Shown: positions 14,259 through 55,636 of the stretch, piece by piece | How the letters are laid out: each line of letters opens with the position of its first letter | Position numbering within the stretch: position 1 is the first letter of the stretch | Assembly (NCBI GenBank): GCA_023426265.1 | Contig: JAFABA010000165.1 | Coordinates: forward strand, 3,453-67,452 | DNA from: Bacillota bacterium | GTDB taxonomy: Bacteria > Bacillota > Clostridia > Christensenellales > CAG-138 | DNA: 64,000 nt | Direction of reading: 5' to 3' | Position numbers and translations under genes: made by a program | The notes under the pieces: generated by a model | Database searches by the model: none | What the model saw: the letters and a program-made list of their open reading frames with translations, nothing else | What the model was told of the DNA's origin: nothing

Positions 14259-15719
14259 ATGCATTGCACGAATTGCGGCAGCCGGTTGCCTGAAACCGGA
14301 AAATTCTGCCCCGCCTGCGGCGCGCCGATGCCCGCGCAACCGGTTCCGGAGCAAGAACCCGTAAAACAGGTTTCTCCGCCTGAACCGGCAGTTCCAGAGG
14401 TTGAACCGACCACCCCGCCTCCCGCGCCCCCAGATGCAAGCGCGTGGCGGCAGCCCGAACCTCCCCAACCGATAAGACCCATGGAGCAGGATCTTGTACG
14501 TATGCCGCCGCAGCCCATACAGTCCATGCCTGGGCCGCAGCATCCGGTACAGGCTCCGGGCGCAAGCATACCCATTATGATTACGCCGCCGCCACAGAAA
14601 AAGCGTTCCGCGCTTCCGGCCATACTGATCGCCGCGGTATTGCTCATCGGAGGAGCGGCGGCAGCGTTCCTGCTGCTCAAAGGCGGGGCCGGCGGCAAGC
14701 TGCCCGAGGTCACCTATACCGATTTTTCCGCTGTGACCAATCCCGAAATCGAATATACGGTACAGGAGGCCATATTCCCCTCCCTGTACCGGACGCTTGA
14801 CTCTGTGGTGACGCTTACCGGCTCCAACGAAGTCGGCGAGCGCGACGTGCTGATACATGTGGAAATACCCGGCTTTACGCAGCCGTATGAGCAGACTGTG
14901 ACTTTTTCCCGCCAGATCACCAAGATCGACATCCACCCCCCGCTGCTTACGGGCGAGATGAATCTCAACACCGAAAAGGACGCACAGGTCGTCATCTCCG
15001 TCAAGGACATGGAGACGGATAAGGTCCTGCTGCAGGACAGCAGGAATATCCGTATCATGAGCAAGTACGACGCCGTCTGGTGGACCGAGGAGATGGGCGA
15101 CAGCAACATGGACAACATACTCGCCTGGATGACGCCGGACTCCGCAAGCGTGCTGGAGTTAAAGCGGCAGGCGATTGATTACCTCGACTATGTTTCCGGC
15201 GGTACCGCAAACTCCTTCATCGGGTATCAGGATTATGGCATCTGGGAAAATCCCATGTGGAATACCTGGCTGCAGGCGGTGGCCATACAGGGCGCCATGA
15301 GCGATATCGCGCTGATCCGGTACAACAACGCCGCTTTCTCCATCAGCACCGACGCCCAGCAGCGCGTCATGCTGCCGGAAGACGTCATGAAGAGCAAAAG
15401 CGGCATCTGCATTGAAACATCGCTGCTCATGGCGTCGGCCCTGCAATCCGCAGGTATGCACGTGATGCTGATCTTCCCGCCGGGGCACGCGCAGGTGGCG
15501 GTGGAAGCCTGGCCCGGCACGGGCGAATATTTCCTGATTGAAACCACCACGCTTCCCATGCCCATGAATGAGGAAGCCTGGGATCAAACCGTTATGTACC
15601 TTACCAACGACCAGTGGCAGGGATATATCGACGGCACCGCCGATTATTCGTATGGCGAATGCTATGTGCTCGACTGCGACCTTGCCCAGAAGCTCAACAT
15701 CCTGCCCATGAGCAACTAG
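14259..15719 (+). CDS. Zinc-ribbon / Pro-rich / single-TM protein with an extracytoplasmic transglutaminase-like core
   Basis: N-terminal MHCTNCGSRLPETGKFCPACGAPM zinc ribbon, a Pro-rich linker and the TM helix LPAILIAAVLLIGGAAAAFLLL. The C-terminal GICIETSLLMASALQSAGMHVMLIFPPGHAQVAVEAW resembles a Cys/His transglutaminase-like core. Confidence 0.55.
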   Translation: MHCTNCGSRLPETGKFCPACGAPMPAQPVPEQEPVKQVSPPEPAVPEVEPTTPPPAPPDASAWRQPEPPQPIRPMEQDLVRMPPQPIQSMPGPQHPVQAPGASIPIMITPPPQKKRSALPAILIAAVLLIGGAAAAFLLLKGGAGGKLPEVTYTDFSAVTNPEIEYTVQEAIFPSLYRTLDSVVTLTGSNEVGERDVLIHVEIPGFTQPYEQTVTFSRQITKIDIHPPLLTGEMNLNTEKDAQVVISVKDMETDKVLLQDSRNIRIMSKYDAVWWTEEMGDSNMDNILAWMTPDSASVLELKRQAIDYLDYVSGGTANSFIGYQDYGIWENPMWNTWLQAVAIQGAMSDIALIRYNNAAFSISTDAQQRVMLPEDVMKSKSGICIETSLLMASALQSAGMHVMLIFPPGHAQVAVEAWPGTGEYFLIETTTLPMPMNEEAWDQTVMYLTNDQWQGYIDGTADYSYGECYVLDCDLAQKLNILPMSN

Positions 15720-15884: not shown

Positions 15885-15960
15885 GCTGATGTAGCTCAGT
15901 CGGTAGAGCACCTCATTGGTAATGAGGAGGTAGGCAGTTCGAATCTGCTCATCAGCTCCA
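15885..15960 (+). tRNA. tRNA-Thr (anticodon GGU)
   Basis: Cloverleaf folded by hand. Acceptor GCTGATG/CATCAGC, D-arm TAGCTCAGTCGGTAGAGCA, anticodon stem CCTCA/TGAGG with loop TTGGTAA, T-arm GGCAGTTCGAATCTGCT, discriminator T, encoded CCA. A TATAAT box sits at 15854..15859. Confidence 0.95.
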
Positions 15961-16062: not shown

Positions 16063-17540
16063 ATCAAACTGGACACGAAATAGGAAAACCTCGAAAAGGC
16101 GCATGTAAAAACGGAAATCGGGAACTGATCCGAACCCTATTGTCCATTGTCCCAGTACAGCTTTTCAGCTTTATCAGGCGACTTATATTGTAACGCGGAA
16201 TGCGGCCGTTCGGCATTGTAGAATTTCATATAGTCATCGAGGCAACGCAACATATCCGCCGCCGAACGGTATTTATGTCGATAGAGTTCCTCCTTTTTGA
16301 GAATTGAAAAAAAGGCTTCGCATACAGCATTGTCATGAGGCTTGCCAGGACGCGATAGAGATTGTACCACGCTGCTTTGTTTAAGTAACCCTCTGAAGGC
16401 AAATGAAAGATACTGCTTGCCGCGGTCGCTATGAAATATCAAACCGGGTAAAGGCTTCCTTTGTGTGTACGCTTGCTTGAAGGTACCGCAAACAAGCTGT
16501 GTGCTGTTGGTTTTAGAAACTTTATAAGCGACAATTTTTCGTGAGTAAAGGTCAACGATCGCGCAAGTGTAATAATAGCAGTCATGAAATTTGAACGCCG
16601 TAACATCGCTTGCCCATATCTTATTGGGAGCATCTGTTTGAAAGCGTTGCTGCAATATGTTTTTGTTTTCGCCCTTTTCCCATTTCTCATATTCATGCTT
16701 AGCTTGCGGGCTTACGCTATGCAAATCCATTTCCTGCATCAACAATCGCATAAGTTTTGGGCTAACCCGGTAGCCCTGCTCTCGTAACACGGCGGCAATC
16801 TTTCGTGCACCATAAATTTGGCAACTGCCGTCGAAAATCTCCTTGACCATTGGCCGTAGCATTTCCCGCCATTGTGAATTGAGCGATTGATCCCGCCTGT
16901 TTCGCAAAATATGATTATAGAATGTTCCTCGAGGCACCTCTAATGCTTGGCATAATTCATATACGCTGTATTTCTGCCCATGTAGGGCTTCTAGCGCCAT
17001 GAGCCTTTCTTGAAGAGGTGAATCTACATTGCAATCAACAGTTTTTAGGATTTCTAATATGTTTTCGAGTTTTTGTGCATGCCGTTTTACACCGTTATAA
17101 TCTTGAATAGTGATGGCTTTACCATTGTTAGTAACAATTTTATTGTGTTGGCTGATCCATGAATATAAGGTGCTTCGTGCAATTCCCGCCTCTCTGCAAA
17201 TGTGTGCCACGGACTCTCCGCTGTGATAGCGGGTCATTAGCTGCTGCTTGCATTCGGGGGTGTACTTCATGTTACCTCCTATTAGTGAATTATAATATTT
17301 GCCGATATAGAAAGAACCGGCATTATGTTATAATACCAAATGAAGCATAAATAGGCTGTTTGGAAGATGTAGAAAAGCCGCTGCTAGTGATATGAATCTT
17401 TGGCTTAAAATTTATAACCCTAAAAGAAATTAGCGGTCGAAGAATCACTGTGGCCGCTAATCCTACTGTAAATACGCATTGACGGAATATTGGACACTTT
17501 TTAATAGAAATGTCCACTAGTCCGTTAGTCACTTCTATCT
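16063..17540 (-). mobile_element. IS3-family insertion sequence (ends only approximate)
   Basis: Contains the transposase gene. Weakly matching terminal segments are ACTGGACA (about 16066) and the complement of AGTGGACA (about 17530). The inverted repeats could not be defined confidently. Confidence 0.4.
16137..17270 (-). CDS. IS3-family transposase (HTH plus DDE/rve domain in one 377-aa frame)
   Basis: N-terminal HTH (SVAHICREAGIARSTLYSWI), a second HTH (SVYELCQALEVPRGTFYNH), and a DDE core (WASDVT...HSDRGKQY...KPHDNAVCEAFFSILKKE...YNAERPHSAL). Confidence 0.9.
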   Translation of the reverse strand: MKYTPECKQQLMTRYHSGESVAHICREAGIARSTLYSWISQHNKIVTNNGKAITIQDYNGVKRHAQKLENILEILKTVDCNVDSPLQERLMALEALHGQKYSVYELCQALEVPRGTFYNHILRNRRDQSLNSQWREMLRPMVKEIFDGSCQIYGARKIAAVLREQGYRVSPKLMRLLMQEMDLHSVSPQAKHEYEKWEKGENKNILQQRFQTDAPNKIWASDVTAFKFHDCYYYTCAIVDLYSRKIVAYKVSKTNSTQLVCGTFKQAYTQRKPLPGLIFHSDRGKQYLSFAFRGLLKQSSVVQSLSRPGKPHDNAVCEAFFSILKKEELYRHKYRSAADMLRCLDDYMKFYNAERPHSALQYKSPDKAEKLYWDNGQ

Positions 17541-17683: not shown

Positions 17684-17822
17684 CGTCAAATTATTACAGT
17701 AAATGATTGTCTTGCTATATACCTTTGGCTTATAATGAGTTAGATGAGATTTCATTTCGATAAAATTACGATTGGATAATACGACGTCTCCTACCCCGCA
17801 TTAAGCGCATAACAGGAAGTCC
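17684..17822 (+). repeat. R1a, a conserved promoter/leader module (copy 1)
   Basis: Direct repeat of 35021..35163. The 34-nt core CGTCAAATTATTACAGTAAATGATTGTCTTGCTA has 2 mismatches between copies. It contains TTGTCT (17707) -18nt- TATAAT (17731) and a TTCG-loop hairpin at 17749..17766. Confidence 0.75.
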
Positions 17823-18103
17823 AATTAAGGCAATATAGCAAAAATGCGAAGGTAAGATTCAGGCGCGCAATGAGTAGTGGATTATCGGAAGCTAGACACA
17901 AAGAATATCCGGGCCTTACCTGTGGCGCTTAACAACACAGTACTCAATAATTGTCTTACCCGCATATTTACGCTGCGAGTCAAATCTAGCATGTGATTGC
18001 TGAGCACATTATGATGTGGTTTACACGGAGCGAAACCTACCGAGACTGTGTACTGATAAAAGGTTTGCTTGAAGAAATGGTCGAAACCTAAGAAGGGATT
18101 CCT

Positions 18104-19012
18104 ATGGGCTATTATACAGAAAGACATGGCATGAGAGCGCCGATTGAGCGTACTTCAACAATCACAATTGGAATGTATGCGTTGTTATTTGACTGCTGCA
18201 CAAAATACTATGATAATATCGCATGGAAATATCCTGCAGAATGCCCTGATGGCAATGGATGTTGTGGGTTAGATTACGAGAAATTTAATGCTGCGATGAC
18301 ATTTGAAATACCAACGCTATGCAGGGATCAGCGTGGTATGATTGAAAAGCCACGTAAAGATTATTACGAAAGCGCAGATGGATATGACCAGTATGCGTTA
18401 TTGGATTTAATCGAGTTCATTGCGTCAAATTGCATAGATATCTCATCCCGTTTTTGGCATGGATTTTTTAGGCATGACGATTTAAGCTTTGGGAAAACCC
18501 ATAAAATTTTTAATGAATTCAGATCCGAAATCAATAGCATATTTGAAAAAACCGGGCTGTTGTATACACTTACTCCCAACAAAGTTGTAGAACGCGTAGC
18601 GGAAAACGATCCTCTCTCCGCAGAGGTCGAAACGCAGGTTCAACAAATTTCCGAACCTGGCACACGAGAATTAATGAAAGAAGCAATTCTATTATACAAA
18701 ACTCCGCACCCCTTAGCTCGAAAAGATTCCGTCGAAAAAATTTGGGATGCTTTGGAACGCCTGAAAACCTACTATGCAAACCTCGATAAAAAGGCTTCTG
18801 CCCAAAAAGTCGTTGAAGACATGAGTAATGGACACGCCGAATTTGTGGAACTGCTTGACACGGAGTTTCGCACTCTGACCAAAATCGGAAACAGTTTTAG
18901 AATTCGCCACCACGAAACAGATAAAACTGAAATTAAAGATGATCGCCATTATGATTACTTTTTTAATCGCTGTCTATCGTTGATTGCGTTGGCGGTCCAG
19001 TATTTGCAATAA
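18104..19012 (+). CDS. AbiJ-like abortive-infection protein, paralogue 1 (variable N-terminal domain plus shared C-terminal domain)
   Basis: The N-terminus MGYYTERHGMRAPIE resembles AbiJ N-terminal-domain families. The C-terminal roughly 125 aa are shared with the next gene (EKIWDALERLKTYY, FRIRHHET, YDYFFNRCLSLIAL). Confidence 0.55.
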   Translation: MGYYTERHGMRAPIERTSTITIGMYALLFDCCTKYYDNIAWKYPAECPDGNGCCGLDYEKFNAAMTFEIPTLCRDQRGMIEKPRKDYYESADGYDQYALLDLIEFIASNCIDISSRFWHGFFRHDDLSFGKTHKIFNEFRSEINSIFEKTGLLYTLTPNKVVERVAENDPLSAEVETQVQQISEPGTRELMKEAILLYKTPHPLARKDSVEKIWDALERLKTYYANLDKKASAQKVVEDMSNGHAEFVELLDTEFRTLTKIGNSFRIRHHETDKTEIKDDRHYDYFFNRCLSLIALAVQYLQ

Positions 19013-19030
19013 TGGGAGCTGCTTTCTTAT

Positions 19031-20416
19031 ATGGGACAAATTTCCGAAGTAACAAGGCACGATTTATTTAATGTCATCCAGGAAGGATTTGCAGGGACAG
19101 GGACCATACAGCGTAATACCGCTGACTATGGTTATATTGACGTTGAAGAGGACATTCACATCTATATGCCGTTTTACGGACGGTTAACTGCGATTGAATT
19201 CCTTGAAAGGCTATATCATTTGGAAGATATGCCTTCGACTGATCATCGCTATAAAAATGCCAAGGGTGATATCTATTGTCATACTGTCAGTTTTGATGAT
19301 TGGCCGGAATTTTGGTTCTTGGATGACGAACGGTTTGAGCTGAAAGACGGGGCTGAGGATGAATCTATACTTAAATTCATCTGTGAGATGCTCCACCCTG
19401 CTGTAAGAGAAGAAGACGGTCCTTGGAAGAAGTACTTAATAAAATTTAATGAGTTACTAAAACCGGACTGTTACGAAATATATGCTTCCTATCGCATTTC
19501 GGGTCGTGATATTTATAAAGCCAGAAAATATGTAGAGCAAAATATAGCTTTTGATGAGAGCCACTTGTTTACAGCAAGATATAAGGAGCTAATTCAAACT
19601 GGAAATGGTTATCCAGTAGATAACATCTGCGGTGAAATTGACTTTCATATTAAAAAACGTCTTGCATCTATCATGATCGAGTTTGCAGAGCCCGCCAAGA
19701 TCAAGCCTAACAGATATGATAACTATGAAATAACAACGGACGCGTTACGGCTGGCAATGGAAAGGGTTTTTACTGTCGTCGCATATCCGGCTATAGATTG
19801 GCATACGAACAACGCATTTGGTATTTCATACGAAGATCAACTTGCAAACCTGTTTAACCCATACTTGTTTGATATTATTGAATTACAATTTAATGAGCTT
19901 TCGCGTTCAGAAAAGGCGGACTTTCAGAAAGCGATAAATGCAGCATTTGATAAAGGCGCAGTGGATTTTATCCTTTCTGATAATGGCATGGTTGTTCAGC
20001 AGCTTCAACACGAAGTGTTGGATAATGCCATTGGAGAAGACATTGGCAAGATTAAAGAGCCTGGATTGAGGGAACTTTTAGATGAGGCAATTGTCTTGCA
20101 TCGTCAGCCCCGTGTGTCTGCACATAAAGATGCTGTAGAAAAAATATGGGATGCATTGGAGCGTCTTAAAACATATTATAGATCTCTGGATAAGAGAGAC
20201 TCTGCTTCAAAAGTCATTAATAACATAAGTAGTGGTAAGACTGAATTTGCTACGCTTTTTAACACAGAATTCAAAGCACTAACTGACATAGGCAATAATT
20301 TTAGAATTCGCCATCATGAAACAAATAAAATCGATATTACAAATGCACGGTATTACGACTATTTTTTTAATCGCTGTCTATCACTGATTGCCTTGGTCGT
20401 TCAATATCTGGACTAA
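19031..20416 (+). CDS. AbiJ-like abortive-infection protein, paralogue 2
   Basis: A different N-terminal domain (ISEVTRHDLFNVI...YGRLTAIEFLERLYHLEDMPSTDHRYKNAKGDIYCHTV..DWPEFWFLDDERF...ILKFICEMLHPAVR) with the same C-terminal domain as 18104..19012. Confidence 0.55.
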   Translation: MGQISEVTRHDLFNVIQEGFAGTGTIQRNTADYGYIDVEEDIHIYMPFYGRLTAIEFLERLYHLEDMPSTDHRYKNAKGDIYCHTVSFDDWPEFWFLDDERFELKDGAEDESILKFICEMLHPAVREEDGPWKKYLIKFNELLKPDCYEIYASYRISGRDIYKARKYVEQNIAFDESHLFTARYKELIQTGNGYPVDNICGEIDFHIKKRLASIMIEFAEPAKIKPNRYDNYEITTDALRLAMERVFTVVAYPAIDWHTNNAFGISYEDQLANLFNPYLFDIIELQFNELSRSEKADFQKAINAAFDKGAVDFILSDNGMVVQQLQHEVLDNAIGEDIGKIKEPGLRELLDEAIVLHRQPRVSAHKDAVEKIWDALERLKTYYRSLDKRDSASKVINNISSGKTEFATLFNTEFKALTDIGNNFRIRHHETNKIDITNARYYDYFFNRCLSLIALVVQYLD

Positions 20417-20554
20417 AAGGGGCATGAGCTTTCCTGTTTGCTTATATTAGACAAGCAATATAGTACAATAATGCGCAGTTTTTTTGTTGTGGTATAAAAT
20501 ATAATTTGTCCGAATGAACATTAGATTAATAAGATTGTTTTTTGGGGTGATAAC

Positions 20555-23500
20555 ATGGAGGATATAAAAACTAATGCAGGAGCGTTGCCTTCTAATGCAG
20601 GTGATGATTTTCATCTTTTATGGGCAGCTCAAAAAATATTGGAAATGCTAAAACCAAGTACAACACTCACAGCTGTGACTGTAGAAGGGCCCGTATGGAA
20701 AGACTCAGTTACTACTGATATAGATAATAGTAAGCTATATGCAATTGACTTAGCTGAATATTATGGAGGCACAGATTTTCAAAATGCGTCAAAAATAGTA
20801 TTCTCTCAATTAAAATATAGTACATATATGGGTGACACGGTATGGACTGCTTCAAGTCTATGTCATTCCGACAATAAGAAGAAAGATAATTCGATTATTC
20901 GTAGACTTGCTGATACTTATAAAGAGTATACAGAGAAGAATGTGAATTCCAAGGATAAGCTTGTTGTGAAATTTGTCAGCAATCGTTCCATTTCTGACAA
21001 TTTAAAACAAGGTATAGGAACAGCGAGAGAGCTTTTAGAAACCAAAAGCTATAAGCAAGCCAATAGCCTTATAAAAAATCTTCCTCCTGAATTCACAACT
21101 GACATTGAAAGGATATATAAAGAATCCAGTCTTAGTTCAACAGCATTTTTGAGCTTTATTAATATGCTTGATTTTGAGGATTGTGGTACAACTACTAGAA
21201 GCATTAAAAAGGCAGAAATCATTAAACAACTGGGTAATTGGGGTATAGATAGTTTACAAAATAAATATAACGAAATAATAATGACTATTCGGGATCGAAT
21301 GATGCCCGGTCGAAATGCCAATGTAGCAATGACTAAAGATTTTGTATGTTCTCTGTTTGGCGGTAATTATGCTCGCTTTTTACCTGCTCCCACCAATATT
21401 CCTGCGTTAAAAACACGTTATATTGAAAGGGAATGCATCCGGGACTTAGTAGATATAGTTTTACAACAAGAAAATGCGCCTATATGTGTCCACGCCACAG
21501 CTGGTATAGGGAAGACTACAATTGTAAGTAATATTGAAAAATACCTTCCTGATGGCTCTGCTTTGGTTTTCTATGATTGCTATGGAGGTGGAACATATCT
21601 GCAGCCTTCTGACTCGAGATATGAATGTGATACTGCTATAACCCAGATTTGCAATAGCCTTGCGCTTGAATGTAAAACCGATTTTTTGTTGGAACGCAGA
21701 TTGAAGGATTCCGAGTTCTTTCAAGAGTTATGTTTACGGCTGGAGCGTGCTATAAAACATGTAAAATTATTCTCTGAAAGCGCTATTATATTACTAATTA
21801 TTGATGCTGCTGACAACGGGATATTTGCGGCAAGGCAGAACGAAAGGAATTGTTTTATTGACAAATTACTCAAACAGCCCTTACCATATGGTGTACGGCT
21901 TCTTTTTACATATCGAACAGAACACGCCGATTATTTTAATTTTCCGGAAGGCTCTAAAACTTATGAAGTTCCTGCATTTAATCTTGCGGAAAGCACAGCA
22001 CATATCCAGTCTTTTTATCCTGCCGCGACAGAAAATGAATGTTTAGAATTTCATCGTTTAAGCAAAGGAATACCACGAGTTCAGGCATATTCATTGAAAT
22101 CACAACGAGAAACATTTCTCGAAGTGGTAGAAATGTTGCGTCCATACGGGAAAACTACCGATGATTTACTCCATGATATACTTAAAGAAATATCTCAAAG
22201 ATATGGGGGAGCAAATGAGAAAATTTCATTTGCTTTCGGAGTCCTTATAAATTTGCCTCGCCCGATACCGCTAATAATTGCTGTCAAAATACTTCAGTGT
22301 ACCCCGGAAATGTTGCAGAGTTTAAGTGTAGACTGTTCCTTTGGCCTTTATATTGAAAATGATTTCATTTACTTTAATGATGAAGATTTTGAAACATTTT
22401 TACGGGATAAATATTGCGATAATTTAAAAGCTGTCAGTGCTATAACGGACTATATGTATCAGCACCGGCACCAAGATGCTTACTGCGCAAAACATGTACA
22501 TAGTTTTCTTGCTAAACAGCCTGACATATCTAAGCTTCTAAATATATCGTTAAATGAATCAATAGATGAATCACTTGTGGATATTACAGAAGCTAGTAGG
22601 ATTATGGTCTCGCGAATTAAAGCCACTTTAAGTATTCCGGTTATAAAAACCCAAGAATACTGGAAAGAATCTTTTCAGTTGATATATAAAATCATTGATT
22701 TTTCGAAAAGTGATGAAGCGATCAATAAACTAATACAAAGCAACCCAGAACAGGCGTATTTGTATTGTGATCAGAATACTCTTTTTGAAGTATTTACCAC
22801 TGATAGAAATGATTTTGACAGCTTAGGGAAAGCAGCATTTATCTTTTCAATGAAATCTGAGACAAAGACGAAGGCCCTTTCCTATTTGGATAGCTATCGG
22901 GGTGCTATTAATTATTATTACAGTAAACCTGAAGAAAAACAAAATCCAGTACAAGGGCCTAAATTTGTAGATATTGTCAATATAGCAGAATCACTGCTCA
23001 GGCTCAAAGACGAGGCGTCAATGAAACGCTGGATAACCTCATGGGTTAGTAGAAAGCTTCAGGCAAACTTATTATTTGAAATTTTGTTCCATCTAATTAA
23101 CCGAAATGATATAAAAACAGCAAACCAAATAGAAAGCCTGCGTTGGTCCGTTTATTGTAAGCTTGCTATAGTAGCTGCCTATTTAAAATGCAAAAAAACA
23201 CCACCAATTAATTTGGTCGAATATCTTAGTAATGTGTTTAATAAAATGCAAACATTAAATTTTACTAATCTTAATAAAGATCATTTTATTCTGTTCCTTG
23301 AATATCTTTGCAAAGATAATACAAATAGAGGTTTGCTCCTTAAAATTATATCAAAGTACCATATTAACTATCGTGTTTCATACCTACCTTACATTCAAGG
23401 AGATGATGAACAAGAACTAGATTGCAATTTAAGATTCTACGTTTTGGAAAAGATATTAAGGGATGAAAAAACTTATTCTGAAGATTTTTGTGATAAGGAT

Positions 23501-26500
23501 AGTCTGCTGAAGGATAAACGATTTACACAGAAAGAAATTGATGAACGAGTAAAAGATATAAGAAAAGTCTATGACTTTCTACTCCCTGCATATATTTATC
23601 GAATTCAAATAATATTAAGAGTTAATAGCGAAGCTACAGAGAAGCTTTATAATAATTGCTTGGTAAAATTAGATCGATTGTATTGGAGCGATCTCGATAA
23701 TCAAAAATCTGGAAGCATTCGTCTTTATTTATTAGCCCTATCTGATGCTGTTTTGAATACGGTTACAACGGATTCCCAAGCAATAAATCAGAATCTTACG
23801 AAAATAGCGAAAGCTACAAAAATATATCGTGATACAAAATTTGCCTTAGCGGACTTATGCTCATATGATCATCGTTCGCAACAATTTGCTTTAGAAATGC
23901 TAAAAGCGATATCTGATGAACTAATTCAACATCCTATATCTGCTATGGAATTATCAGAGGCATATATTAAATGTACTCAGATTGGTCAAAAAGTTGAGTT
24001 AAATGTTGGCCAAATATACTTTAAAAAAGCACTCCAAGCTGCAAAAGGATTGGATTACGAATCATATCGCAAGCTTGAACTTTTTAACGTCTTGTCTAAC
24101 GTTGCTGCTGATGGAAAACATCTTTCAAACGTAGAATTTTCCCATGAATTTGTACGTTTAGCTGAAGATTATTATCGAAAAATGGGCGATTCGAAGAACT
24201 TCCCATATAAAGAGGTTTTTGAAACTGCGACAATATTATGTCCAGAGAATATTTTTTCTATAATGTGCCGGATAGATGATCGTAATGATTGGGATCATTT
24301 TTCCTTACCTGAAAGTGCTTTTTATGTGTTATCTGTTTTGCTGGAAAGAGATATTTATTGCCCTGATATTATATCATCATTGTCGACCATTTTACTTCCA
24401 GAACAGCCGTCTGATTATAATAATCTAGCTAAAAAGATACTACAACATCTTATGAAAGCACCTATTTTTGTTCGCCAAAAGAGTTTAGACAATCTAATTT
24501 CTGATACCTTATACAATGTACCTTTAATTTATAAAGATACATTGGCAAAAGATATTACATCTTACATTACTGAGTATGGAATATCTGGTTATAGAAACAG
24601 CCAAGAGATAAAAGCTTTGTATGATTTTCTTCGCTCTATTGATGTGGAAACGAAGAAAAATCAAATAGAAAGTAAAACAACAGAATTACCCGTTACAGAT
24701 ATAGATATTAAGACTTGCATTATATCCGATTATTTACAATTAATAGGCTATTTAAAAGTGCTAGATATGGATAATCAAGTGATATTTGTCGATTCATGGC
24801 TCGCTGATACTTTGCCGGAAGATTATGTTTCAAGGGCAACCATAATAATAGAAGCATGCTTAAATGGGGCATATTCTATTGAGGCATCAAAAATAATGAA
24901 TGTTTTTATAAAATATATAAGCAAATGGTGCGTATGGCCAACAATAGAAACTTGGAGAAATGGTATTCAGAGAAAAATATTTATAGATCATATGGAAAAG
25001 ATACTAAGTTCCTATCATGATTATTATAATAAGTTAATCAATATTTTTAACGTTCAAGAATTTGATATTCGCGCATTTTTTATAGAATACTTGATATCAA
25101 AAGATAATATTTCAAGTGATTATATCATTGAAATATTAAAAAAATTATCTTCAACTCTTTCTGCCAGTTATGCTGAAGAAGCTTTAAAGTGGTGTATCTC
25201 AACAGAAATTCCTTCAATACATCCACTATCGGGCGATCAACCATATTCCAATAGCTTTTCTCAAATTGATGCGGATTTACTGCCGATTTGCAAGTTGCTA
25301 TGGAGGATGTTGGGGCATCCAGATAAAAAATATCGATGGATTGCTGCACATATAATACGGAACCTATATTCATGTGGGCACTCAAAAATTATAGAGTATT
25401 TCACTACTTTGTATGATGCTCCATTTGATTTGCGATATATGGATAGGAATAATTTCTTTTTTATTGAGTCCGCTAAAGTATATTTCTTAGCTGTATGTCT
25501 TCGCATTTTTAGTAAGGAACCAAAAGGCGGAGTGCCCTTTTATTGCTTCTTTAAAGAAATTGCGTGCGCTGGCCAAACCACTCACGCATTACAAAGAAGG
25601 TTAGCGAAAAATATTAGCCTAAAAATTGCTGAAGTAAATTATTCTGGTGATATTGAACAGATATTGATATCTGACGAATTAAAGCAAAGAAAAATAAAAG
25701 AATCTCCGAGATACGCAAGAGCAAGTTTCTCATCAACTCAAAAACTTCGTTTTCATTTTGATTACATGGATACCCTTCCTTATTGGTATAATGATGTTGC
25801 AGACATCTTTTGTCTTATGCAGGAAGATGTTGCGAGAGACTGTGACGACTATATTCAACAATTTGGTATTGATAATACTAAGACACAAACATGGCAAAAT
25901 AAGTACTTGCATTATAATAGATATCGCAATCGAAATATTAACAATAGTCATGGCTGCTTACCAGAAGTTGAAACATTGGAGAAATATGCTGAGTGGCATG
26001 CAATGTTTTATGTTGCTGACCAATATCGTCGCACCTTGCCCTATTCGGATGATTCTTATAAAAACTACCATGATTGGCTTGATTCATATCTTCCTGGTTA
26101 TCGGGGATATTGGAGTTGTGAGTATCGTGACCATGTCCCATTCGTTCCATTTTTATGGGAGTTTAAAAAATACAAGAATCCCCAAAATGACCATGAATAT
26201 ATAATTCAACATAATCTAGCTACTTCACTAATCATGAATGGTGATTATATAGTTACATATTTGTATTATCACTCTGCCTTCGACCAAAGCAATCAAAGTG
26301 TCAAAATAAAAAGTGCATTAATCAATGAGGAAGATATTTCTAGGTTAATTAGGGAACTTGAGAATCTACATAACATATTTGAGGACTATTATTTTGAACC
26401 GAACCGTGAAGTACGTAAATATCTTAAAAAGGCTGCCGTGATAATTTGGCCATTACATATAAATTTAGATTCTTTAAGTGATAACAGGCTTGACCAGCAT

Positions 26501-26908
26501 GACCCATTTGCAAAAGATGTATATACGGATATCTATTCTTTTTCGCAGGATGTATTGGTTAATTGCGGATATGAATTGAATGTAGAGTTACTTTCGCTTC
26601 CTACAGAAAATAAGAATTTTCCTCTGCATATAGCTAAATGGAGTGAGCCGAGTGAAGAAGGCGGATATACAAAACAAGGAACTTATGGCAGTATCGCAGA
26701 AATAAAGGTCGACCTACTCCTGAAATTTCTTAATAGTACAAATAAAGCTCTTATCTTTGAATATGGCATAGCTTTTGAGGATGCGACTTATCACTTTTAT
26801 GGAACACCAAGCAAAGCAGCTAAAGAAAAAGGTGTATTTATTATTCATTCAAATGGCAGAACAGAATCGCATGTATTAAAACGAGGTTCAGATGTTGGTT
26901 ATGAGTAA
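20555..26908 (+). CDS. Giant STAND-type NTPase (Avs/AVAST-like): N-terminal PD-(D/E)xK (Cap4/DUF4297-like) nuclease domain, P-loop NTPase, roughly 1500-aa helical C-terminal region
   Basis: N-terminal GDDFHLLWAAQKILEML...YAIDLAEYYGG...VFSQLKYS. Walker A is HATAGIGKTT (nt 21494..21520) and Walker B is IILLIIDAADNG (D at 21803). The long alpha-helical tail has no recognised domain. Confidence 0.7.
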   Translation: MEDIKTNAGALPSNAGDDFHLLWAAQKILEMLKPSTTLTAVTVEGPVWKDSVTTDIDNSKLYAIDLAEYYGGTDFQNASKIVFSQLKYSTYMGDTVWTASSLCHSDNKKKDNSIIRRLADTYKEYTEKNVNSKDKLVVKFVSNRSISDNLKQGIGTARELLETKSYKQANSLIKNLPPEFTTDIERIYKESSLSSTAFLSFINMLDFEDCGTTTRSIKKAEIIKQLGNWGIDSLQNKYNEIIMTIRDRMMPGRNANVAMTKDFVCSLFGGNYARFLPAPTNIPALKTRYIERECIRDLVDIVLQQENAPICVHATAGIGKTTIVSNIEKYLPDGSALVFYDCYGGGTYLQPSDSRYECDTAITQICNSLALECKTDFLLERRLKDSEFFQELCLRLERAIKHVKLFSESAIILLIIDAADNGIFAARQNERNCFIDKLLKQPLPYGVRLLFTYRTEHADYFNFPEGSKTYEVPAFNLAESTAHIQSFYPAATENECLEFHRLSKGIPRVQAYSLKSQRETFLEVVEMLRPYGKTTDDLLHDILKEISQRYGGANEKISFAFGVLINLPRPIPLIIAVKILQCTPEMLQSLSVDCSFGLYIENDFIYFNDEDFETFLRDKYCDNLKAVSAITDYMYQHRHQDAYCAKHVHSFLAKQPDISKLLNISLNESIDESLVDITEASRIMVSRIKATLSIPVIKTQEYWKESFQLIYKIIDFSKSDEAINKLIQSNPEQAYLYCDQNTLFEVFTTDRNDFDSLGKAAFIFSMKSETKTKALSYLDSYRGAINYYYSKPEEKQNPVQGPKFVDIVNIAESLLRLKDEASMKRWITSWVSRKLQANLLFEILFHLINRNDIKTANQIESLRWSVYCKLAIVAAYLKCKKTPPINLVEYLSNVFNKMQTLNFTNLNKDHFILFLEYLCKDNTNRGLLLKIISKYHINYRVSYLPYIQGDDEQELDCNLRFYVLEKILRDEKTYSEDFCDKDSLLKDKRFTQKEIDERVKDIRKVYDFLLPAYIYRIQIILRVNSEATEKLYNNCLVKLDRLYWSDLDNQKSGSIRLYLLALSDAVLNTVTTDSQAINQNLTKIAKATKIYRDTKFALADLCSYDHRSQQFALEMLKAISDELIQHPISAMELSEAYIKCTQIGQKVELNVGQIYFKKALQAAKGLDYESYRKLELFNVLSNVAADGKHLSNVEFSHEFVRLAEDYYRKMGDSKNFPYKEVFETATILCPENIFSIMCRIDDRNDWDHFSLPESAFYVLSVLLERDIYCPDIISSLSTILLPEQPSDYNNLAKKILQHLMKAPIFVRQKSLDNLISDTLYNVPLIYKDTLAKDITSYITEYGISGYRNSQEIKALYDFLRSIDVETKKNQIESKTTELPVTDIDIKTCIISDYLQLIGYLKVLDMDNQVIFVDSWLADTLPEDYVSRATIIIEACLNGAYSIEASKIMNVFIKYISKWCVWPTIETWRNGIQRKIFIDHMEKILSSYHDYYNKLINIFNVQEFDIRAFFIEYLISKDNISSDYIIEILKKLSSTLSASYAEEALKWCISTEIPSIHPLSGDQPYSNSFSQIDADLLPICKLLWRMLGHPDKKYRWIAAHIIRNLYSCGHSKIIEYFTTLYDAPFDLRYMDRNNFFFIESAKVYFLAVCLRIFSKEPKGGVPFYCFFKEIACAGQTTHALQRRLAKNISLKIAEVNYSGDIEQILISDELKQRKIKESPRYARASFSSTQKLRFHFDYMDTLPYWYNDVADIFCLMQEDVARDCDDYIQQFGIDNTKTQTWQNKYLHYNRYRNRNINNSHGCLPEVETLEKYAEWHAMFYVADQYRRTLPYSDDSYKNYHDWLDSYLPGYRGYWSCEYRDHVPFVPFLWEFKKYKNPQNDHEYIIQHNLATSLIMNGDYIVTYLYYHSAFDQSNQSVKIKSALINEEDISRLIRELENLHNIFEDYYFEPNREVRKYLKKAAVIIWPLHINLDSLSDNRLDQHDPFAKDVYTDIYSFSQDVLVNCGYELNVELLSLPTENKNFPLHIAKWSEPSEEGGYTKQGTYGSIAEIKVDLLLKFLNSTNKALIFEYGIAFEDATYHFYGTPSKAAKEKGVFIIHSNGRTESHVLKRGSDVGYE

Positions 26909-27244
26909 TATCTTTGATATCTAACTTCGCATTGTGATCAGCACCGCTTAATTAGTGCTATTATCCTAACGCCATATCATACGAGACTTTAAACTGAGCC
27001 TATTCTCCGATGTAAGCCTTATGATAGTCGATACCATCCATATCACCTGTATTGTGGCTCTCGAAATTGCCTTTTAAGAGGGTTATTATCCAAGATCCAC
27101 TGGCATACGGTTATGGATGAACTCGATATTCGCCCCAGCCGCTTTTGCTAGCATTACAAACACACAAACACTTCTAGCCCGGCTACAGCATGCCGACAAT
27201 TGCCAGACATGATATAATTAGTAAAAACAAGTTGGGAAAAAATT

Positions 27245-27769
27245 ATGGATTATTCAATATACATCATCATTGCTATCATCATAGGTGTTGCTTATTTTAT
27301 ATATTACAGAATAAACAAAAATAGTACTATGCATTTTAGACAAGCTGAAGAGTTTATCATTGGTTTATGTAATGCGTATCAAAATGAAGCTGAAGCAGGA
27401 TTAACTAAATATATAGATAGTCACAAGGCGTCAAATAATTGTTGGACTTTTGCCGTTATATTTGCGGGGTATAAGATTGCGCAATTGAATTTTTGCTATC
27501 ATCTTAAAGAATATGAGGATATTCTTCATTTAACATACAAATATATCTACAAGAATGCTGATGAGCATATGAGACGGTATATTCTGATTGTTGATATTCT
27601 TGATATAGCTCTTCCAAAATACGTAGGTAATCAAACAATGGACATACCAAGAACAGAAAAGAGAGTAGGCAGAGAAACAATTCAAGATTGCATAGTTGAT
27701 AAACGATATTATGCTTTATTAAGAGAGTTGTCACATCTTTCGTTAGATATAGAAGGCAACGAGCTCTAA
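27245..27769 (+). CDS. Hypothetical small protein with one N-terminal TM helix
   Basis: MDYSIYIIIAIIIGVAYFIYY followed by a helical soluble part. A TATAAT box lies about 30 nt upstream. The helicase gene follows 75 nt downstream. Confidence 0.5.
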   Translation: MDYSIYIIIAIIIGVAYFIYYRINKNSTMHFRQAEEFIIGLCNAYQNEAEAGLTKYIDSHKASNNCWTFAVIFAGYKIAQLNFCYHLKEYEDILHLTYKYIYKNADEHMRRYILIVDILDIALPKYVGNQTMDIPRTEKRVGRETIQDCIVDKRYYALLRELSHLSLDIEGNEL

Positions 27770-27844
27770 CTCAAACGGCATTATTTATAATCTTCTAAGG
27801 AAGCAAGAGTAAATTAAAGCGGTTATACTAGTGGAGGCAAGTGA

Positions 27845-30800
27845 GTGTTACGACAGATTCTAAAATATTGGTATCAACTAGAGTACTTTAACCCGTGCTG
27901 GCCGATCAACACTTATGAGGACACTAACCTCACTAAGCAAGACTTGCCTTGGCAAAATCAGCAACAAGATTCCAGGATTCGGATAAGCTATGATGTATAC
28001 TTGGGCAAGGCCCGATCGAACGATCTGATTGTTTTGATGCTGAAAGCGCTAAATCTTGATACTGAAGGATCTTCCATCGAAAACGATAATTCATTGGTTT
28101 GCCTTTGTGCAATCAAAATTGATGAGCAAGGGAAATATGTTTCCGATTCCTTTGCAATTTCTAGTTTTGTTTGGGCAATCTTTAAACTTATTAGCGCTGG
28201 TTCAATTAGTGAGAAGCTAGATGTATCTGAATTAGAAATGTTGCAGCGGGAAATAAATAGCCAGCTTTTGCAGGATAATGAAGGCCCTGAGACTTCACCA
28301 GTATCCAAGGATTATTTAAGAAAAGTCTATGAGCTGGTTTGCCATGAAGCTAAGGTAAATCATGAATTATTTGAGGCTTCCTTGTGGTCCCGCCGGAAAG
28401 TTCAGTATGCTAACAAGAGTGGCGATTTCCCCCCGATGGATCCCGCCACTGAATTATTACAAAGCTTTTACCTTAGGGATATGGATAAAATTCAAAAGTC
28501 ACCTACACAAAGAATTAGCCATTACGTCAAGGCCATGATTGAAACCAGTACTGAAGCGCAGCGCATACAGATTGATATCGATGTTAGGCATATGCAGCGA
28601 TGGCTGAAAGCAGACTGCTTTCCGCTTGGCGTATGGCCCTCGCCATACAGTCCAAGTCTGATGCAACAACTAGGAATCAATATCGCGATTGCGGGTGAGC
28701 AGGATATATTTTCGGTTAACGGCCCGCCAGGAACGGGAAAAACAACACTACTAAAGGAGGTCGTGGTTTCAAACATTATTCATAGGGCCGTTGTGATGGT
28801 TGGTTATGATTCGCCTGAGCAAGCATTCACCAAAGCTGAAATGGAAAATCCGCCCGACCAGTTTAATAAATATTTTTATAAGATTAATAAAAAGCTATCG
28901 GGTTATGGCATGGTTGTGGCTTCCAACAATAACGCCGCAGTCGAAAACATATCGGTAGAACTTCCAAAGGCGATAGGGGGAGATAGAACCGGACGATTTT
29001 CCGGTATGGGCGTGGGAACAGCTGATACATATTTTGCGGATATTGCAACCAAGCTGCTGGGCGAGCCTGCGTGGGGGCTTATCTCGGCTAAACTGGGAAA
29101 GAAAAGTAATATAAAGGCTCTCAAGGAACGTCTTTGGTGGGCGGATGATGAGGTGACGCTCAAGCACTATTATGATGAAGCAACCGCACCGGATTGGAAT
29201 ACAGCACGCCAAGATTTTCGGGCAGCGCTGCAAGCTGTGGAAGTTGCCCGAAAAGATATTAAATATGCACAATCTTTGCTAGCTGAGCAAAAACAAGCGA
29301 TGGCAGACCAAATGGCTGCCGAAGTCAAGAATGATGAGACGCAGGCCGAGCTTTTCCGTCAACAGGCAGGCCTACTAGAGCAGCAGCAAAATCTGAGCAA
29401 GTTGGAAGGCAAGCTAGTATTACAGCAGCAAAATATTGCCATGTTACGATCAAGCCTCTCGTTTCTGAAGCTCGTGTTTTGGCGGGTATTCAAGAACAAT
29501 CCTGTTATAAAAGAATGGAAACAGACTGAACAAGATACACAAGAAACGATTATCCTAATTACCCGGCAAAGAACTATCTGTCATACACAGGAAGAAATTG
29601 TGCAGGCGGTACAAATACGTCATCAGATATCCGAGAATGATCTCCATCAAGCCGAGCAAAAACTACATGCTGTCAATGCGGCGATCGTACCATATAAAGA
29701 GCGCTTTGGAGACAATTGGGCAGATGCTGCCTTTTGGGAAAATATCTGTGAAAATGAGCGTTCACAGGCACTCTGTCCATGGACCTACGCTGAGTATGAC
29801 AAAGTGCGGGAAGAGCTGTTCTATCAGGCGCTCATGCTACACAAGGCGTTTGTATTATCCAGCAACCGTGTTAAGCAAAACTTGATGCGTCTCTTCGCCA
29901 TGTGGGACGGAAAGTTTATGACAGGCGATTGTGAATCCGCCTATGGGCACCTATTTAACACTCTGCTCCTTGTAATACCAGTAGTTTCGACTACCTTTGC
30001 TTCGGTACAATCCTTTTTGGAGGGTATACAGGCCGAGGAACTAGGGATTCTAGTGGTGGACGAAGCAGGGCAGGCAACTCCGCAGAGTGCTTTAGGAGCA
30101 TTATGGCGAACAAAAAAAGCAATTATTGTTGGTGATCCGTTGCAGGTTGAGCCGATTGTTACCATTCCAAATGAACTGCGAAAACGCTTTGCTGATGAAA
30201 ACAATATTCCTTCGATATATCGAGTACCAGAATTGTCAGTACAAGTGTTGGCCGACCAGCTTAATTCGTATGGTGGAATTCGGAACCTGGAGGACGAAAA
30301 ACTTTGGTTAGGCTGTCCACTAGTTGTGCATCGCAGATGCCTTAACCCAATGTTTCAAATTTCTAACGAAGTGGCTTATAACGGTAGGATGTTTACCAAA
30401 ACCGCTTTGCCGGATCGAGCAAAGGAATTTCTGCTAGAGCAATCGGTATGGTTCGATGTTAAGGGCGTTGAAAAAGGTAATAAGAATCATGCGGTGCAAC
30501 AACAGCTTGACGTTGTAATTACTCAGGTTGAGAAGGCGATTGATGTTTACGCCGGTTTGCCCGATTTGTATATAATTACGCCCTTTACCTCAGTGGATCG
30601 GGCATTGAAAAATGCAATTCGTCCCGTAATTAAAAGAAGACTGTCGTCGCAGGTGGATGTTAAAGATATCGATGGATGGCTCAACGAAAACTGTGGTACC
30701 ATTCACACCTTTCAAGGCAAGGAAGCAAACGAGGTGCTGCTGGTACTTGGCTGTGATGCTCAAAGGGGGAAAGGTGCTGCACAATGGGTAGGACAGAAAC

Positions 30801-30955
30801 CCAACATAATTAATGTGGCTGTTTCTCGATCAAAATATCGTTTGGGCGTTATTGGCGATTATGACCTATGGAAAAACATACCGTACGTGCGTACGGTATG
30901 CAAATATTTAAAAAAACAGCAAGTCAAGAATAAGCAAGTCACCCGACTAGAGTGA
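27845..30955 (+). CDS. Superfamily 1 (Upf1/DNA2-like, COG1112-type) helicase with an unknown roughly 290-aa N-terminal domain and a coiled-coil insertion
   Basis: GTG start after GGAGG. Walker A NGPPGTGKTT (28721..), VVDEAGQATP (D at 30059), IIVGDPLQVEP, HTFQGKEANEVLLVLG and INVAVSRSKYRLGVIGD. A Q-rich coiled coil lies between motifs I and II. Confidence 0.85.
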   Translation: MLRQILKYWYQLEYFNPCWPINTYEDTNLTKQDLPWQNQQQDSRIRISYDVYLGKARSNDLIVLMLKALNLDTEGSSIENDNSLVCLCAIKIDEQGKYVSDSFAISSFVWAIFKLISAGSISEKLDVSELEMLQREINSQLLQDNEGPETSPVSKDYLRKVYELVCHEAKVNHELFEASLWSRRKVQYANKSGDFPPMDPATELLQSFYLRDMDKIQKSPTQRISHYVKAMIETSTEAQRIQIDIDVRHMQRWLKADCFPLGVWPSPYSPSLMQQLGINIAIAGEQDIFSVNGPPGTGKTTLLKEVVVSNIIHRAVVMVGYDSPEQAFTKAEMENPPDQFNKYFYKINKKLSGYGMVVASNNNAAVENISVELPKAIGGDRTGRFSGMGVGTADTYFADIATKLLGEPAWGLISAKLGKKSNIKALKERLWWADDEVTLKHYYDEATAPDWNTARQDFRAALQAVEVARKDIKYAQSLLAEQKQAMADQMAAEVKNDETQAELFRQQAGLLEQQQNLSKLEGKLVLQQQNIAMLRSSLSFLKLVFWRVFKNNPVIKEWKQTEQDTQETIILITRQRTICHTQEEIVQAVQIRHQISENDLHQAEQKLHAVNAAIVPYKERFGDNWADAAFWENICENERSQALCPWTYAEYDKVREELFYQALMLHKAFVLSSNRVKQNLMRLFAMWDGKFMTGDCESAYGHLFNTLLLVIPVVSTTFASVQSFLEGIQAEELGILVVDEAGQATPQSALGALWRTKKAIIVGDPLQVEPIVTIPNELRKRFADENNIPSIYRVPELSVQVLADQLNSYGGIRNLEDEKLWLGCPLVVHRRCLNPMFQISNEVAYNGRMFTKTALPDRAKEFLLEQSVWFDVKGVEKGNKNHAVQQQLDVVITQVEKAIDVYAGLPDLYIITPFTSVDRALKNAIRPVIKRRLSSQVDVKDIDGWLNENCGTIHTFQGKEANEVLLVLGCDAQRGKGAAQWVGQKPNIINVAVSRSKYRLGVIGDYDLWKNIPYVRTVCKYLKKQQVKNKQVTRLE

Positions 30956-33310: not shown

Positions 33311-33361
33311 CCTTCGGCTTTTTTCTCAAGTCCAAAATATCTAAATTGACAACGAAATCCA
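33311..33361. repeat. R2a, the cassette 3' module (copy 1), followed by a hairpin at 33366..33411
   Basis: CCTTCGGCTTTTTTCTCAAGTCCAAAATATCTAAATTGACAACGAAATCCA compared with 41647..41700: a 3-nt indel and 3 substitutions by eye. It is followed by AGACAAACCTG-N20-CAGGTTTGTCT plus a T-run. Confidence 0.75.
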
Positions 33362-37941: not shown

Positions 37942-38027
37942 GACAGCGTTGTTATATGCGCTTTCCAAGGTATACGTAAGGCGGACACTTTGTAAAGGGG
38001 CCGAAGCGCAAAAAAGAGGTGGATAAG

Positions 38028-55617: not shown

Positions 55618-55636
55618 ATTTCCGAGGTGATGCGCA

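What the first reader, a model, noticed from the sequence alone, without database searches (positions are those of the whole stretch)
20555..26908. 2117-aa STAND NTPase with an N-terminal Cap4/DUF4297-like nuclease and an unassigned roughly 1500-aa sensor region
The architecture is a PD-(D/E)xK-like head (GDDFHLLWAA...AIDLAE...SQLKYS), a Walker A/B NTPase (GIGKTT, LLIIDAADNG) and a very long helical tail. This matches the logic of Avs/AVAST antiviral STAND proteins, but the tail has no recognisable TPR or other motif by eye.

The protein may recognise a new phage trigger, or it may define a new Avs-like clade.
Basis: partly seen in the sequence, partly recalled or inferred. Interest (0 to 1): 0.7.

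Follow-up and report, generated by a model that had tools for sequence, protein, structure and literature searches.

The report
Divergent Avs3 antiphage sensor-nuclease gene
This 2117-residue gene is an intact but divergent member of the already characterised Avs3 family of bacterial antiviral sensors, which detect a phage DNA-packaging enzyme and respond by cutting DNA, so it is a routine defence gene and not a new kind of system.

Summary
It is not an unassigned Avs-like protein. It matches the PADLOC and NCBIfam Avs3a models end to end (E about 1e-155). A profile of its family aligns in one unbroken stretch with 2077 of the 2092 residues of SeAvs3, the cryo-EM structure bound to phage terminase (PDB 8DGC). 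No other Avs or STAND model or structure scores. AlphaFold models of residues 1-300 and 1450-2117 both find SeAvs3 as best structural match, and the head also matches Cap4, HamA and LmuA nucleases. The nuclease residues D65/Q85/K87 and Walker A/B are invariant in the family. The two SeAvs3 residues that read the terminase-bound ATP are conserved here as Y1743 and H1799. The gene stands alone, with no conserved partner. It is 34% GC and lies in a 26-kb low-GC defence island next to tRNA-Thr, in a spore-forming Bacillota genome of about 55% GC. It probably senses the phage large terminase, tetramerises and degrades DNA. Verdict: a new, divergent Bacillota member of a known kind, and of low interest.

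The parts
20555..26908 (+). Complete avs3 gene (2117 aa plus stop), a single-gene system
   Evidence: ORF. PADLOC Avs3a E=1.2e-155 over residues 12-2073. NCBIfam Avs3a E=1.2e-157. Family profile against PDB 8dgc_A: 1051 bits, one stretch covering 9-2085 of 2092. Neighbours are not conserved in L001-L009.
20555..21409 (+). N-terminal Cap4-like PD-(D/E)xK nuclease effector (residues about 1-285), with candidate catalytic residues D65, E68, Q85 and K87, plus invariant D17, H20 and E44
   Evidence: AF2 model pLDDT 81.8, pTM 0.80. Foldseek: SeAvs3 head E=5e-13, TMq 0.66, then Cap4 7yia/7yib/6wan/6vm5, HamA 8zue and LmuA 9hr5. These residues are 36/36 invariant. They align with SeAvs3 D62/E65/Q82/K84.
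20684..20743 (+). Loop between E44 and the catalytic D65, aligned with the flexible loop (residues 41-60) that regulates the Cap4 domain in SeAvs3
   Evidence: Alignment. Low-confidence segment 55-57 in the model. The loop's regulatory role in SeAvs3 is stated in PMC13581612. A role here is inferred only.
21422..22234 (+). STAND NTPase module (residues about 290-560): Walker A GIGKTT 317-322 (nt 21503-21520) and Walker B LLIIDAADN 413-421 (nt 21791-21817)
   Evidence: Weak Pfam NACHT/AAA_22/NPHP3_N hits at 306-476. K320, D417, D420 and R454 are invariant 36/36. K320 aligns with SeAvs3 K293.
22235..26209 (+). Long helical (TPR-like) sensor, residues about 561-1885. The most variable part is 700-1500. 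Conserved motifs are GHPDKKYRW (1587-1595), FDYMDTLPYWY (1735-1745) and KYAEWHAMFYVAD (1810-1822)
   Evidence: Continuous profile alignment to SeAvs3. Identity to distant family members is 14-19% over 700-1100 and 1300-1500, and 23-27% over 1500-1900. Model of 1450-2117 is helical up to about residue 1870.
25781..25783 (+). Y1743, equivalent to SeAvs3 Y1714, which contacts the ATP bound in the terminase ATPase site
   Evidence: Alignment. Role of Y1714 from bioRxiv 10.64898/2026.08.25.746987. Conserved in 33/36 family members.
25949..25951 (+). H1799, equivalent to SeAvs3 H1770, in a loop reported as essential for ATP binding and Avs3 immunity
   Evidence: Alignment. Lies in a loop of the model, segment residues 337-358. 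Role. H in 26/36 members, otherwise Q, Y or K.
26210..26905 (+). C-terminal mixed alpha/beta domain (residues about 1886-2117), the end of the sensor
   Evidence: Beta-rich secondary structure in the model. Included in the 678-column structural alignment to 8dgc_A, E=1.8e-22, TMq 0.60.

Best explanation
The gene encodes a stand-alone Avs3-family antiviral STAND protein. By analogy with Salmonella SeAvs3, the long C-terminal helical sensor binds the large terminase subunit made by an infecting tailed phage. It reads conserved features of that protein, including the ATP in its ATPase site, through Y1743 and the loop containing H1799. Binding releases autoinhibition. The central NTPase (Walker A K320, Walker B D417/D420) binds ATP and drives tetramer formation. 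This brings the N-terminal Cap4-like nuclease domains (D65, Q85, K87) together into active units that degrade double-stranded DNA without sequence specificity, which stops phage replication at the cost of the infected cell. Shown here: the intact gene, full-length homology and fold similarity to SeAvs3, conservation of the catalytic and ATP-reading residues, the lack of a conserved partner gene, and the defence-island context. Inferred, not shown: the trigger, the oligomeric state, the nuclease activity and the abortive-infection outcome.
For: Only Avs3a scores in PADLOC and NCBIfam, over the full length. phmmer against the PDB finds only SeAvs3, at 6e-88. The family profile gives 1051 bits in one stretch covering 9-2085 of 2092 residues, and no other Avs or STAND reaches E<=0.01. 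The head model matches SeAvs3 and then Cap4, HamA and LmuA. The model of the C-terminal 668 aa matches only SeAvs3, at E=1.8e-22 and TMq 0.60. The nuclease and Walker residues are invariant, and Y1743 and H1799 are conserved. The SeAvs3 mechanism is taken from PMC13601566 and PMC13581612. The gene is flanked by PDC-S32, a MkoC-like helicase, PDC-S56 and CBASS. The family has at least 1008 representatives at E<=1e-30 with the same length and layout.
Against: Divergence from SeAvs3 is large: 17-23% identity in the structure-based alignments. The NCBIfam equivalog cut-off is missed by a wide margin, 527 against 2800 bits. The central sensor (residues 700-1500) is only 14-19% identical even within the family, so specificity could have shifted. 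H1799 is replaced in 10 of 36 relatives, so that contact is not universal. Sensor residues 560-1450 were not modelled. The structural alignment of the tail has a high rmsd of 14 A, presumably from hinge differences. No experiment has been done on this protein or on any Bacillota Avs3.
Confidence: 0.85

Rival explanations
1. The protein has the Avs3 fold but a shifted specificity. This Bacillota clade would keep the Avs3 scaffold, but its divergent central sensor would recognise a different phage protein, or only terminases of a restricted phage group.
For: The sensor region 700-1500 is 14-19% identical among family members. The H1799 position varies in the family. Related Avs2 proteins are known to respond to more than one trigger (abstract of PMC11564622; Ksap1/2).
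Against: In this protein both ATP-reading residues are retained. Length and collinearity with SeAvs3 are preserved without large indels. SeAvs3 itself recognises terminases with less than 10% pairwise identity, so sensor sequence drift does not imply a new target.
Confidence: 0.1
2. The protein belongs to another Avs family that carries a Cap4 head or resembles Avs3, for example capsid-sensing Avs7 or terminase-sensing Avs1, and was misassigned because PADLOC 2023 lacks the newer families.
For: Cap4 heads occur in several Avs families. [quoted passage not shown] PADLOC v2.0.0 predates Avs6-24.
Against: The homology to SeAvs3 runs through the NTPase and the whole sensor, not only the head. No other STAND in the PDB copy reached E<=0.01 by sequence or E<=0.001 by fold for the tail. 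No PADLOC model other than Avs3a scored on the NTPase or sensor, even at E<=10.
Confidence: 0.03
3. The gene is a decaying or non-defence STAND ATPase that only resembles Avs3.
For: Sources annotate the relatives only as hypothetical, ATP-binding or NACHT proteins. One relative, in Alkalibaculum (L004), is frameshifted.
Against: The reading frame is intact at full family length. All catalytic and nucleotide-binding residues are invariant. The gene lies among at least six other defence systems. The identical sequence is found in a second assembly.
Confidence: 0.02

Closest known systems
SeAvs3 (Salmonella enterica Avs3; AVAST type 3; PDB 8DGC, bound to phage PhiV-1 large terminase)
   Same: Nearly the same length (2117 against 2092 aa) and the same order of Cap4-like nuclease, STAND NTPase and long TPR-like sensor. 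The profile alignment is continuous over 99% of the chain. It is the best structural match for both the head and the tail. The nuclease residues (D62/E65/Q82/K84 to D65/E68/Q85/K87), the Walker A lysine (K293 to K320) and the ATP-reading residues (Y1714 to Y1743, H1770 to H1799) are conserved.
   Different: Identity is only about 17-23% in the structure-based alignments. The gene is from a Bacillota host, not an enterobacterium, and is 34% GC. It scores far below the NCBIfam equivalog cut-off. The central sensor is strongly diverged. The trigger has not been tested.
Avs1 and Avs2 (the other terminase-sensing Avs families)
   Same: Same three-part logic. According to the literature, the same trigger class, with an ATP-mediated contact to the terminase ATPase.
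   Different: No Avs1 or Avs2 model or structure scored against this protein. Avs2 has a shorter TPR, lacks the H1770 loop and needs only the terminase ATPase domain.
SeAvs7 (Cap4-STAND that senses the major capsid protein together with EF-Tu)
   Same: Cap4 nuclease head fused to a STAND NTPase and a TPR sensor, activated by tetramerisation.
   Different: The sensor and trigger are unrelated, the Cap4 tetramer is arranged differently and the regulatory loop differs. No sequence match was found here.
Cap4 (the CBASS nuclease effector with a SAVED domain), Hachiman HamA and Lamassu LmuA
   Same: Same DUF4297/Cap4-type PD-(D/E)xK nuclease fold as residues 1-285. There is a marginal PADLOC SAVED_PDDEXK hit on residues 15-147.
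   Different: Those nucleases are activated by cyclic oligonucleotides or by partner proteins, not by a fused STAND sensor. Similarity is limited to the head.

Membership tests
Avs3 (AVAST type 3) | Three-part single polypeptide: N-terminal effector, central STAND NTPase with Walker A/B, and a long C-terminal helical sensor | tested here: met
Avs3 (AVAST type 3) | Full-length collinear match to Avs3 profiles, and to no other Avs profile | tested here: met
   PADLOC Avs3a 1.2e-155, residues 12-2073 against profile 9-2053 of 2090. It is the only Avs model scoring at E<=10.
Avs3 (AVAST type 3) | Homology to the experimentally characterised member SeAvs3 across both the NTPase and the sensor | tested here: met
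   phmmer 6e-88. Family profile 1051 bits, one stretch covering 9-2085 of 2092.
Avs3 (AVAST type 3) | Sensor in the same structural cluster as the SeAvs3 sensor (criteria of the 2026 STAND survey: Foldseek E<=1e-10, TM>=0.40, 80% coverage) | tested here: inconclusive
   The last 668 aa meet the E and TM criteria (1.8e-22, TMq 0.60, 678 columns). Sensor residues 560-1450 were not modelled, so the 80% coverage criterion for the whole sensor was not tested structurally. The sequence profile does cover that region.
Avs3 (AVAST type 3) | Residues that read the terminase-bound ATP (SeAvs3 Y1714 and the H1770 loop) | tested here: met
   Y1743 and H1799 align with them. Their roles are and their conservation.
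Avs3 (AVAST type 3) | Cap4-like nuclease effector with an intact active site | tested here: met
   Fold. D65, E68, Q85 and K87 are invariant.
Avs3 (AVAST type 3) | Activation by the phage large terminase subunit, tetramerisation and dsDNA degradation | not testable with these tools
   Needs co-expression toxicity assays, biochemistry, or complex structure prediction.
Avs3 (AVAST type 3) | Placement of the NTPase domain in the Avs3 clade of a STAND phylogeny | not tested
Only profile discrimination was done.
NCBIfam NF041816 Avs3a (equivalog naming model; an annotation threshold, not a biological criterion) | Score at or above the curated cut-off of 2800 bits | tested here: not met
   526.7 bits. 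The cut-off is so high that only near relatives of the seed sequences can pass, which fits with this clade being labelled hypothetical or ATP-binding in public records. It limits the claim to 'Avs3 family member' and does not support 'equivalog of enterobacterial Avs3a'.
Two-gene AVAST type 3 (Avs3a plus a partner) | A conserved adjacent partner gene | tested here: not met
   The 174-aa downstream ORF and the other neighbours have no tblastn match next to homologues in L001-L006. The nearest homologue has different neighbours. No family hit for the 174-aa ORF. The gene is filed as a single-gene system, as SeAvs3 is treated in the papers read.
Avs7 | Bilobed TPR sensor homologous to the SeAvs7/Dsr1 sensor | tested here: inconclusive
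   No solved chain other than SeAvs3 matched by sequence or fold. I could not confirm that the SeAvs7 coordinates are in the PDB copies searched.

The most novel reading that the evidence does not exclude
The Bacillota branch of Avs3 to which this gene belongs is about 20% identical to SeAvs3 and has a highly variable central sensor. It might have re-tuned the scaffold to a different phage protein, or to the terminases of a particular group of Clostridia phages. That would make it a natural example of specificity change on a fixed Avs3 architecture.
Probability: 0.1. Interest if true: 0.45.

Novelty: new member of a known kind. Interest (0 to 1): 0.17.

Why it matters
The value is mainly in annotation. 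A whole clade of roughly 2100-aa Bacillota proteins, labelled in public records as hypothetical, ATP-binding or NACHT proteins, can be named Avs3-family terminase sensors. The window also shows one of them carried on a low-GC defence island into a genome of about 55% GC. It does not open a new question. The architecture, structure, trigger class and mechanism of the family have been published since 2022.

Tried and rejected
1. Avs3b-type partner: the 174-aa ORF at 27245-27769 is not conserved beside homologues and has no family hit. A literature search for 'Avs3A' and 'Avs3B' found nothing.
2. A tRNA-derived attachment repeat marking the island's right end: there is no second copy of the tRNA-Thr 3' end, even allowing 3 mismatches.
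3. Promoter and terminator scan of 17800-28000: no better than shuffled sequence.
4. Rfam scan of the window: only the tRNA.
5. Megablast of the gene against complete E. coli genomes: no match.
6. Host identification: exact look-ups of YtxC and OadB returned only short metagenome contigs. The genome-contig scan returned relatives but not the source genome. The host is known only as a spore-forming Bacillota (ThrRS and YtxC).
7. The original SeAvs3 paper (Science 2022) could not be read, by DOI or by a guessed PMC id. SeAvs3 residue roles are taken from later papers that cite it.
8. A first attempt to search the window with a malformed pattern failed, as did one literature query.
Full report
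Observation. A GGGGTG Shine-Dalgarno-like element lies 5 nt upstream of the ATG. In DNA of this composition, an open frame of that length has a chance probability of about 1e-74. Every quoted motif is present: GDDFH 16-20, IDLAE 64-68, SQLKYS 84-89, GIGKTT 317-322 and LLIIDAADN 413-421. Pfam gives only sub-threshold NACHT, AAA_22 and NPHP3_N hits at 306-476 and nothing in the tail, so "no recognisable motif by eye" is a fair description for ordinary domain libraries.

Identity. Defence-specific and structure-linked searches settle what the protein is. The PADLOC Avs3a model matches residues 12-2073 against profile positions 9-2053 of 2090, at E=1.2e-155. NCBIfam Avs3a (NF041816) matches 12-2072 at E=1.2e-157. 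Even at E<=10 no other Avs model scores. The only other PADLOC hit is a marginal Cap4-type SAVED_PDDEXK match on residues 15-147. phmmer against all PDB chains finds a single protein, SeAvs3 (8dgc_A, 2092 aa), at E=6e-88 in three collinear pieces. A profile built from 36 family members spanning 23-85% identity (alignment A1) aligns to SeAvs3 in one unbroken stretch, profile 12-2123 to chain 9-2085, at 1051 bits. The next best PDB hits are generic P-loop matches at E>0.02. The "unassigned roughly 1500-aa sensor" is therefore homologous throughout to the terminase-binding sensor of SeAvs3.

An AlphaFold2 model of residues 1-300 (pLDDT 81.8, pTM 0.80) finds the SeAvs3 head first (E=5e-13, TMq 0.66). 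It then finds true Cap4 receptors (7yia, 7yib, 6wan, 6vm5), Hachiman HamA (8zue) and Lamassu LmuA (9hr5, 9nxx). All of these are Cap4-type PD-(D/E)xK nucleases. A model of residues 1450-2117 (pLDDT 81.5, pTM 0.74) has only one significant PDB match, again SeAvs3 (E=1.8e-22, TMq 0.60, 678 aligned columns). The next hit is a generic helical repeat at E=0.24. The high rmsd of 14 A fits hinge differences between an unliganded prediction and a terminase-bound structure, but I did not test this. These values pass the E-value and TM thresholds that the 2026 STAND survey used to define sensor clusters. The 80% coverage criterion for the whole sensor was not tested structurally, because residues 560-1450 were not modelled.

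Functional residues. In alignment A1 the nuclease candidates D17, H20, E44, D65, E68, Q85 and K87 are invariant in 36/36 sequences. So are Walker A G317/G319/K320, Walker B D417/D420, and R454. D65, E68, Q85 and K87 align with SeAvs3 D62, E65, Q82 and K84, and K320 aligns with K293. A recent Avs2 study states that SeAvs3 Y1714 contacts the ATP bound in the terminase ATPase site. It also states that the H1770 loop is essential for that contact and for immunity. Through the pairwise alignment these map to Y1743 and H1799, and H1799 lies in a loop of the model. Y1743 is conserved in 33/36 family members and H1799 in 26/36. Within the family, conservation is highest in the head (48% identity to distant members) and the NTPase (40%). 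It is lowest in the central sensor (14-19% over 700-1100 and 1300-1500) and rises again over 1500-1900 (23-27%), where the ATP-reading motifs lie.

Family and context. The word-indexed search found 753 relatives at E<=1e-10, nearly all about 2100 aa. The closest are 85% identical, and the nearest named ones come from Clostridia and Paenibacillus (Geosporobacter, Alkalibaculum, Tissierella, Lacrimispora). Sources label them hypothetical, ATP-binding or NACHT. An exhaustive profile search with the C-terminal sensor found 1602 cluster representatives at 50% identity, 1008 of them at E<=1e-30. Full-length hits are 2050-2220 aa with the sensor at about 1440-2150. The shorter hits nearly all match up to their own C-terminus, as expected for proteins cut off at contig ends. 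None of this gene's neighbours is conserved beside homologues in six genomic loci. The nearest homologue sits in a different mobile element, with serine recombinases, ArdA and AbiH. The gene therefore works alone, and the 174-aa downstream ORF is not a partner. That ORF is a predicted membrane protein with no family hit.

Island. The gene is 34% GC. It lies in a 26-kb island of 39% GC (about 16.0-41.9 kb) that begins just after tRNA-Thr (15885-15960). The flanks are 55% GC and encode ThrRS, the sporulation protein YtxC, HtrA and glycerate kinase, so the host is a spore-forming Bacillota. Close relatives reside in genomes that are natively 30-34% GC, which points to horizontal acquisition from low-GC Clostridia. 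The island also carries an IS3-type transposase, two PDC-S32/AbiJ paralogues, a MkoC-like helicase, PDC-S56, a KilA-N/PDC-S22 protein, a CBASS pair and a PDC-M11-like pair. The identical protein with identical neighbours is found on a 25-kb contig of ENA assembly ERZ27268959.

Mechanism. This follows published work on SeAvs3 (PMC13601566 and PMC13581612). The sensor binds the phage large terminase, engaging both its ATPase and nuclease domains and the ATP in its active site. The NTPase binds ATP and the protein tetramerises. The Cap4 domains assemble and degrade dsDNA, aborting the infection. For the present protein, the scaffold and residues needed for each step are shown to be present. The trigger, the oligomerisation, the cleavage and the outcome are inferred. 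I put 0.85 on this explanation. The main rival (0.10) is that the scaffold is Avs3 but the divergent central sensor has shifted specificity.

Comparison and novelty. The protein works like an Avs3 and, on every biological criterion I could test, is an Avs3 family member. The one failed test is the NCBIfam equivalog cut-off (527 against 2800 bits). That is an annotation threshold so high that only near relatives of the model's seed sequences can pass, and it fits with the family going unnamed in Bacillota records. It limits the claim to family membership and does not support equivalence with enterobacterial Avs3a. Avs1, Avs2 and Avs7 share the logic, and Avs7 shares the Cap4 head, but none scores against this protein. 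I could not confirm that SeAvs7 coordinates are in the PDB copies searched, and I built no NTPase phylogeny.

Verdict. This is a new, divergent member of a known kind. It is useful for annotation and for studies of Avs3 diversity, but it is not surprising. Interest 0.17.

Noticed in passing
window 15885-41900: A 26-kb low-GC island (39% against 55% GC) starts right after tRNA-Thr(GGT) and holds at least seven defence modules: two PDC-S32/AbiJ paralogues, Avs3, a MkoC-like helicase, PDC-S56, KilA-N/PDC-S22, CBASS and a PDC-M11-like pair. It also has an IS3-type transposase at its left edge (16137-17270, - strand). No tRNA-derived direct repeat marks the right edge.
   Followed up: partly
window 33319-33361 and 41658-41700: A 43-nt direct repeat (93% identical, 8339 nt apart) brackets the block from the truncated serine recombinase through KilA-N, CBASS, the GNAT fusion and the ASCH gene. 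The second copy runs into a near-perfect 24-nt hairpin (41694-41743) at the island's right edge. This may be the ends of a nested element, or a repeated intergenic module.
   Followed up: no
window 17684-17725 and 35021-35062: A 42-nt direct repeat (88% identical) lies upstream of two different defence operons, the PDC-S32 pair and the CBASS effector. It may be a shared regulatory region.
   Followed up: no
window 18104-19012 and 19031-20416: Two tandem PDC-S32 paralogues share a C-terminal domain (298-nt repeat, 71% identical) but have different AbiJ N-terminal domains (NTD4 and NTD3). This looks like N-terminal domain swapping on a common C-terminal domain.
   Followed up: partly
window 27245-30955: A 174-aa predicted membrane protein with no family match is followed by a 1036-aa SF1 helicase that matches PADLOC MkoC (7e-63). 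No MkoA or MkoB is nearby, so this is not a canonical Mokosh system and may be an undescribed two-gene module.
   Followed up: partly
window 33537-34181: A serine-recombinase remnant has the Recombinase and zinc-ribbon domains but lacks the catalytic Resolvase domain. It is probably a relic of the element that delivered part of the island.
   Followed up: no
window 35370-37941: A CBASS pair: an HNH-SAVED endonuclease effector (PADLOC 2e-127) overlapping a CD-NTase with an AGS-C domain (5e-147). A 194-aa ORF of unknown family follows at 38019-38603.
   Followed up: partly
window 14259-15719: [quoted passage not shown]
   Followed up: no
L011 (ENA ERZ27268959 k141_65428) and L010: In an independent assembly the island sits on its own 25,262-bp contig, about the size of the island, while the flanking OadB gene is on a separate 2.3-kb contig. 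The island borders may therefore be assembly break points, from the IS copy or a coverage difference. The nearest homologue (85%) comes from a sample with a nearby accession number (ERZ27269101), possibly the same study.
   Followed up: no
L004 10001-16365 (Alkalibaculum sporogenes): The Avs3 homologue there is split into two overlapping tblastn pieces (query residues 1-1669 and 1636-2117), which suggests a frameshifted, probably inactivated, copy.
   Followed up: no
window about 54000-54500 and 55500-55750: Two short low-GC patches (38-40%) lie in the otherwise 55% GC right flank. They were not examined.
   Followed up: no
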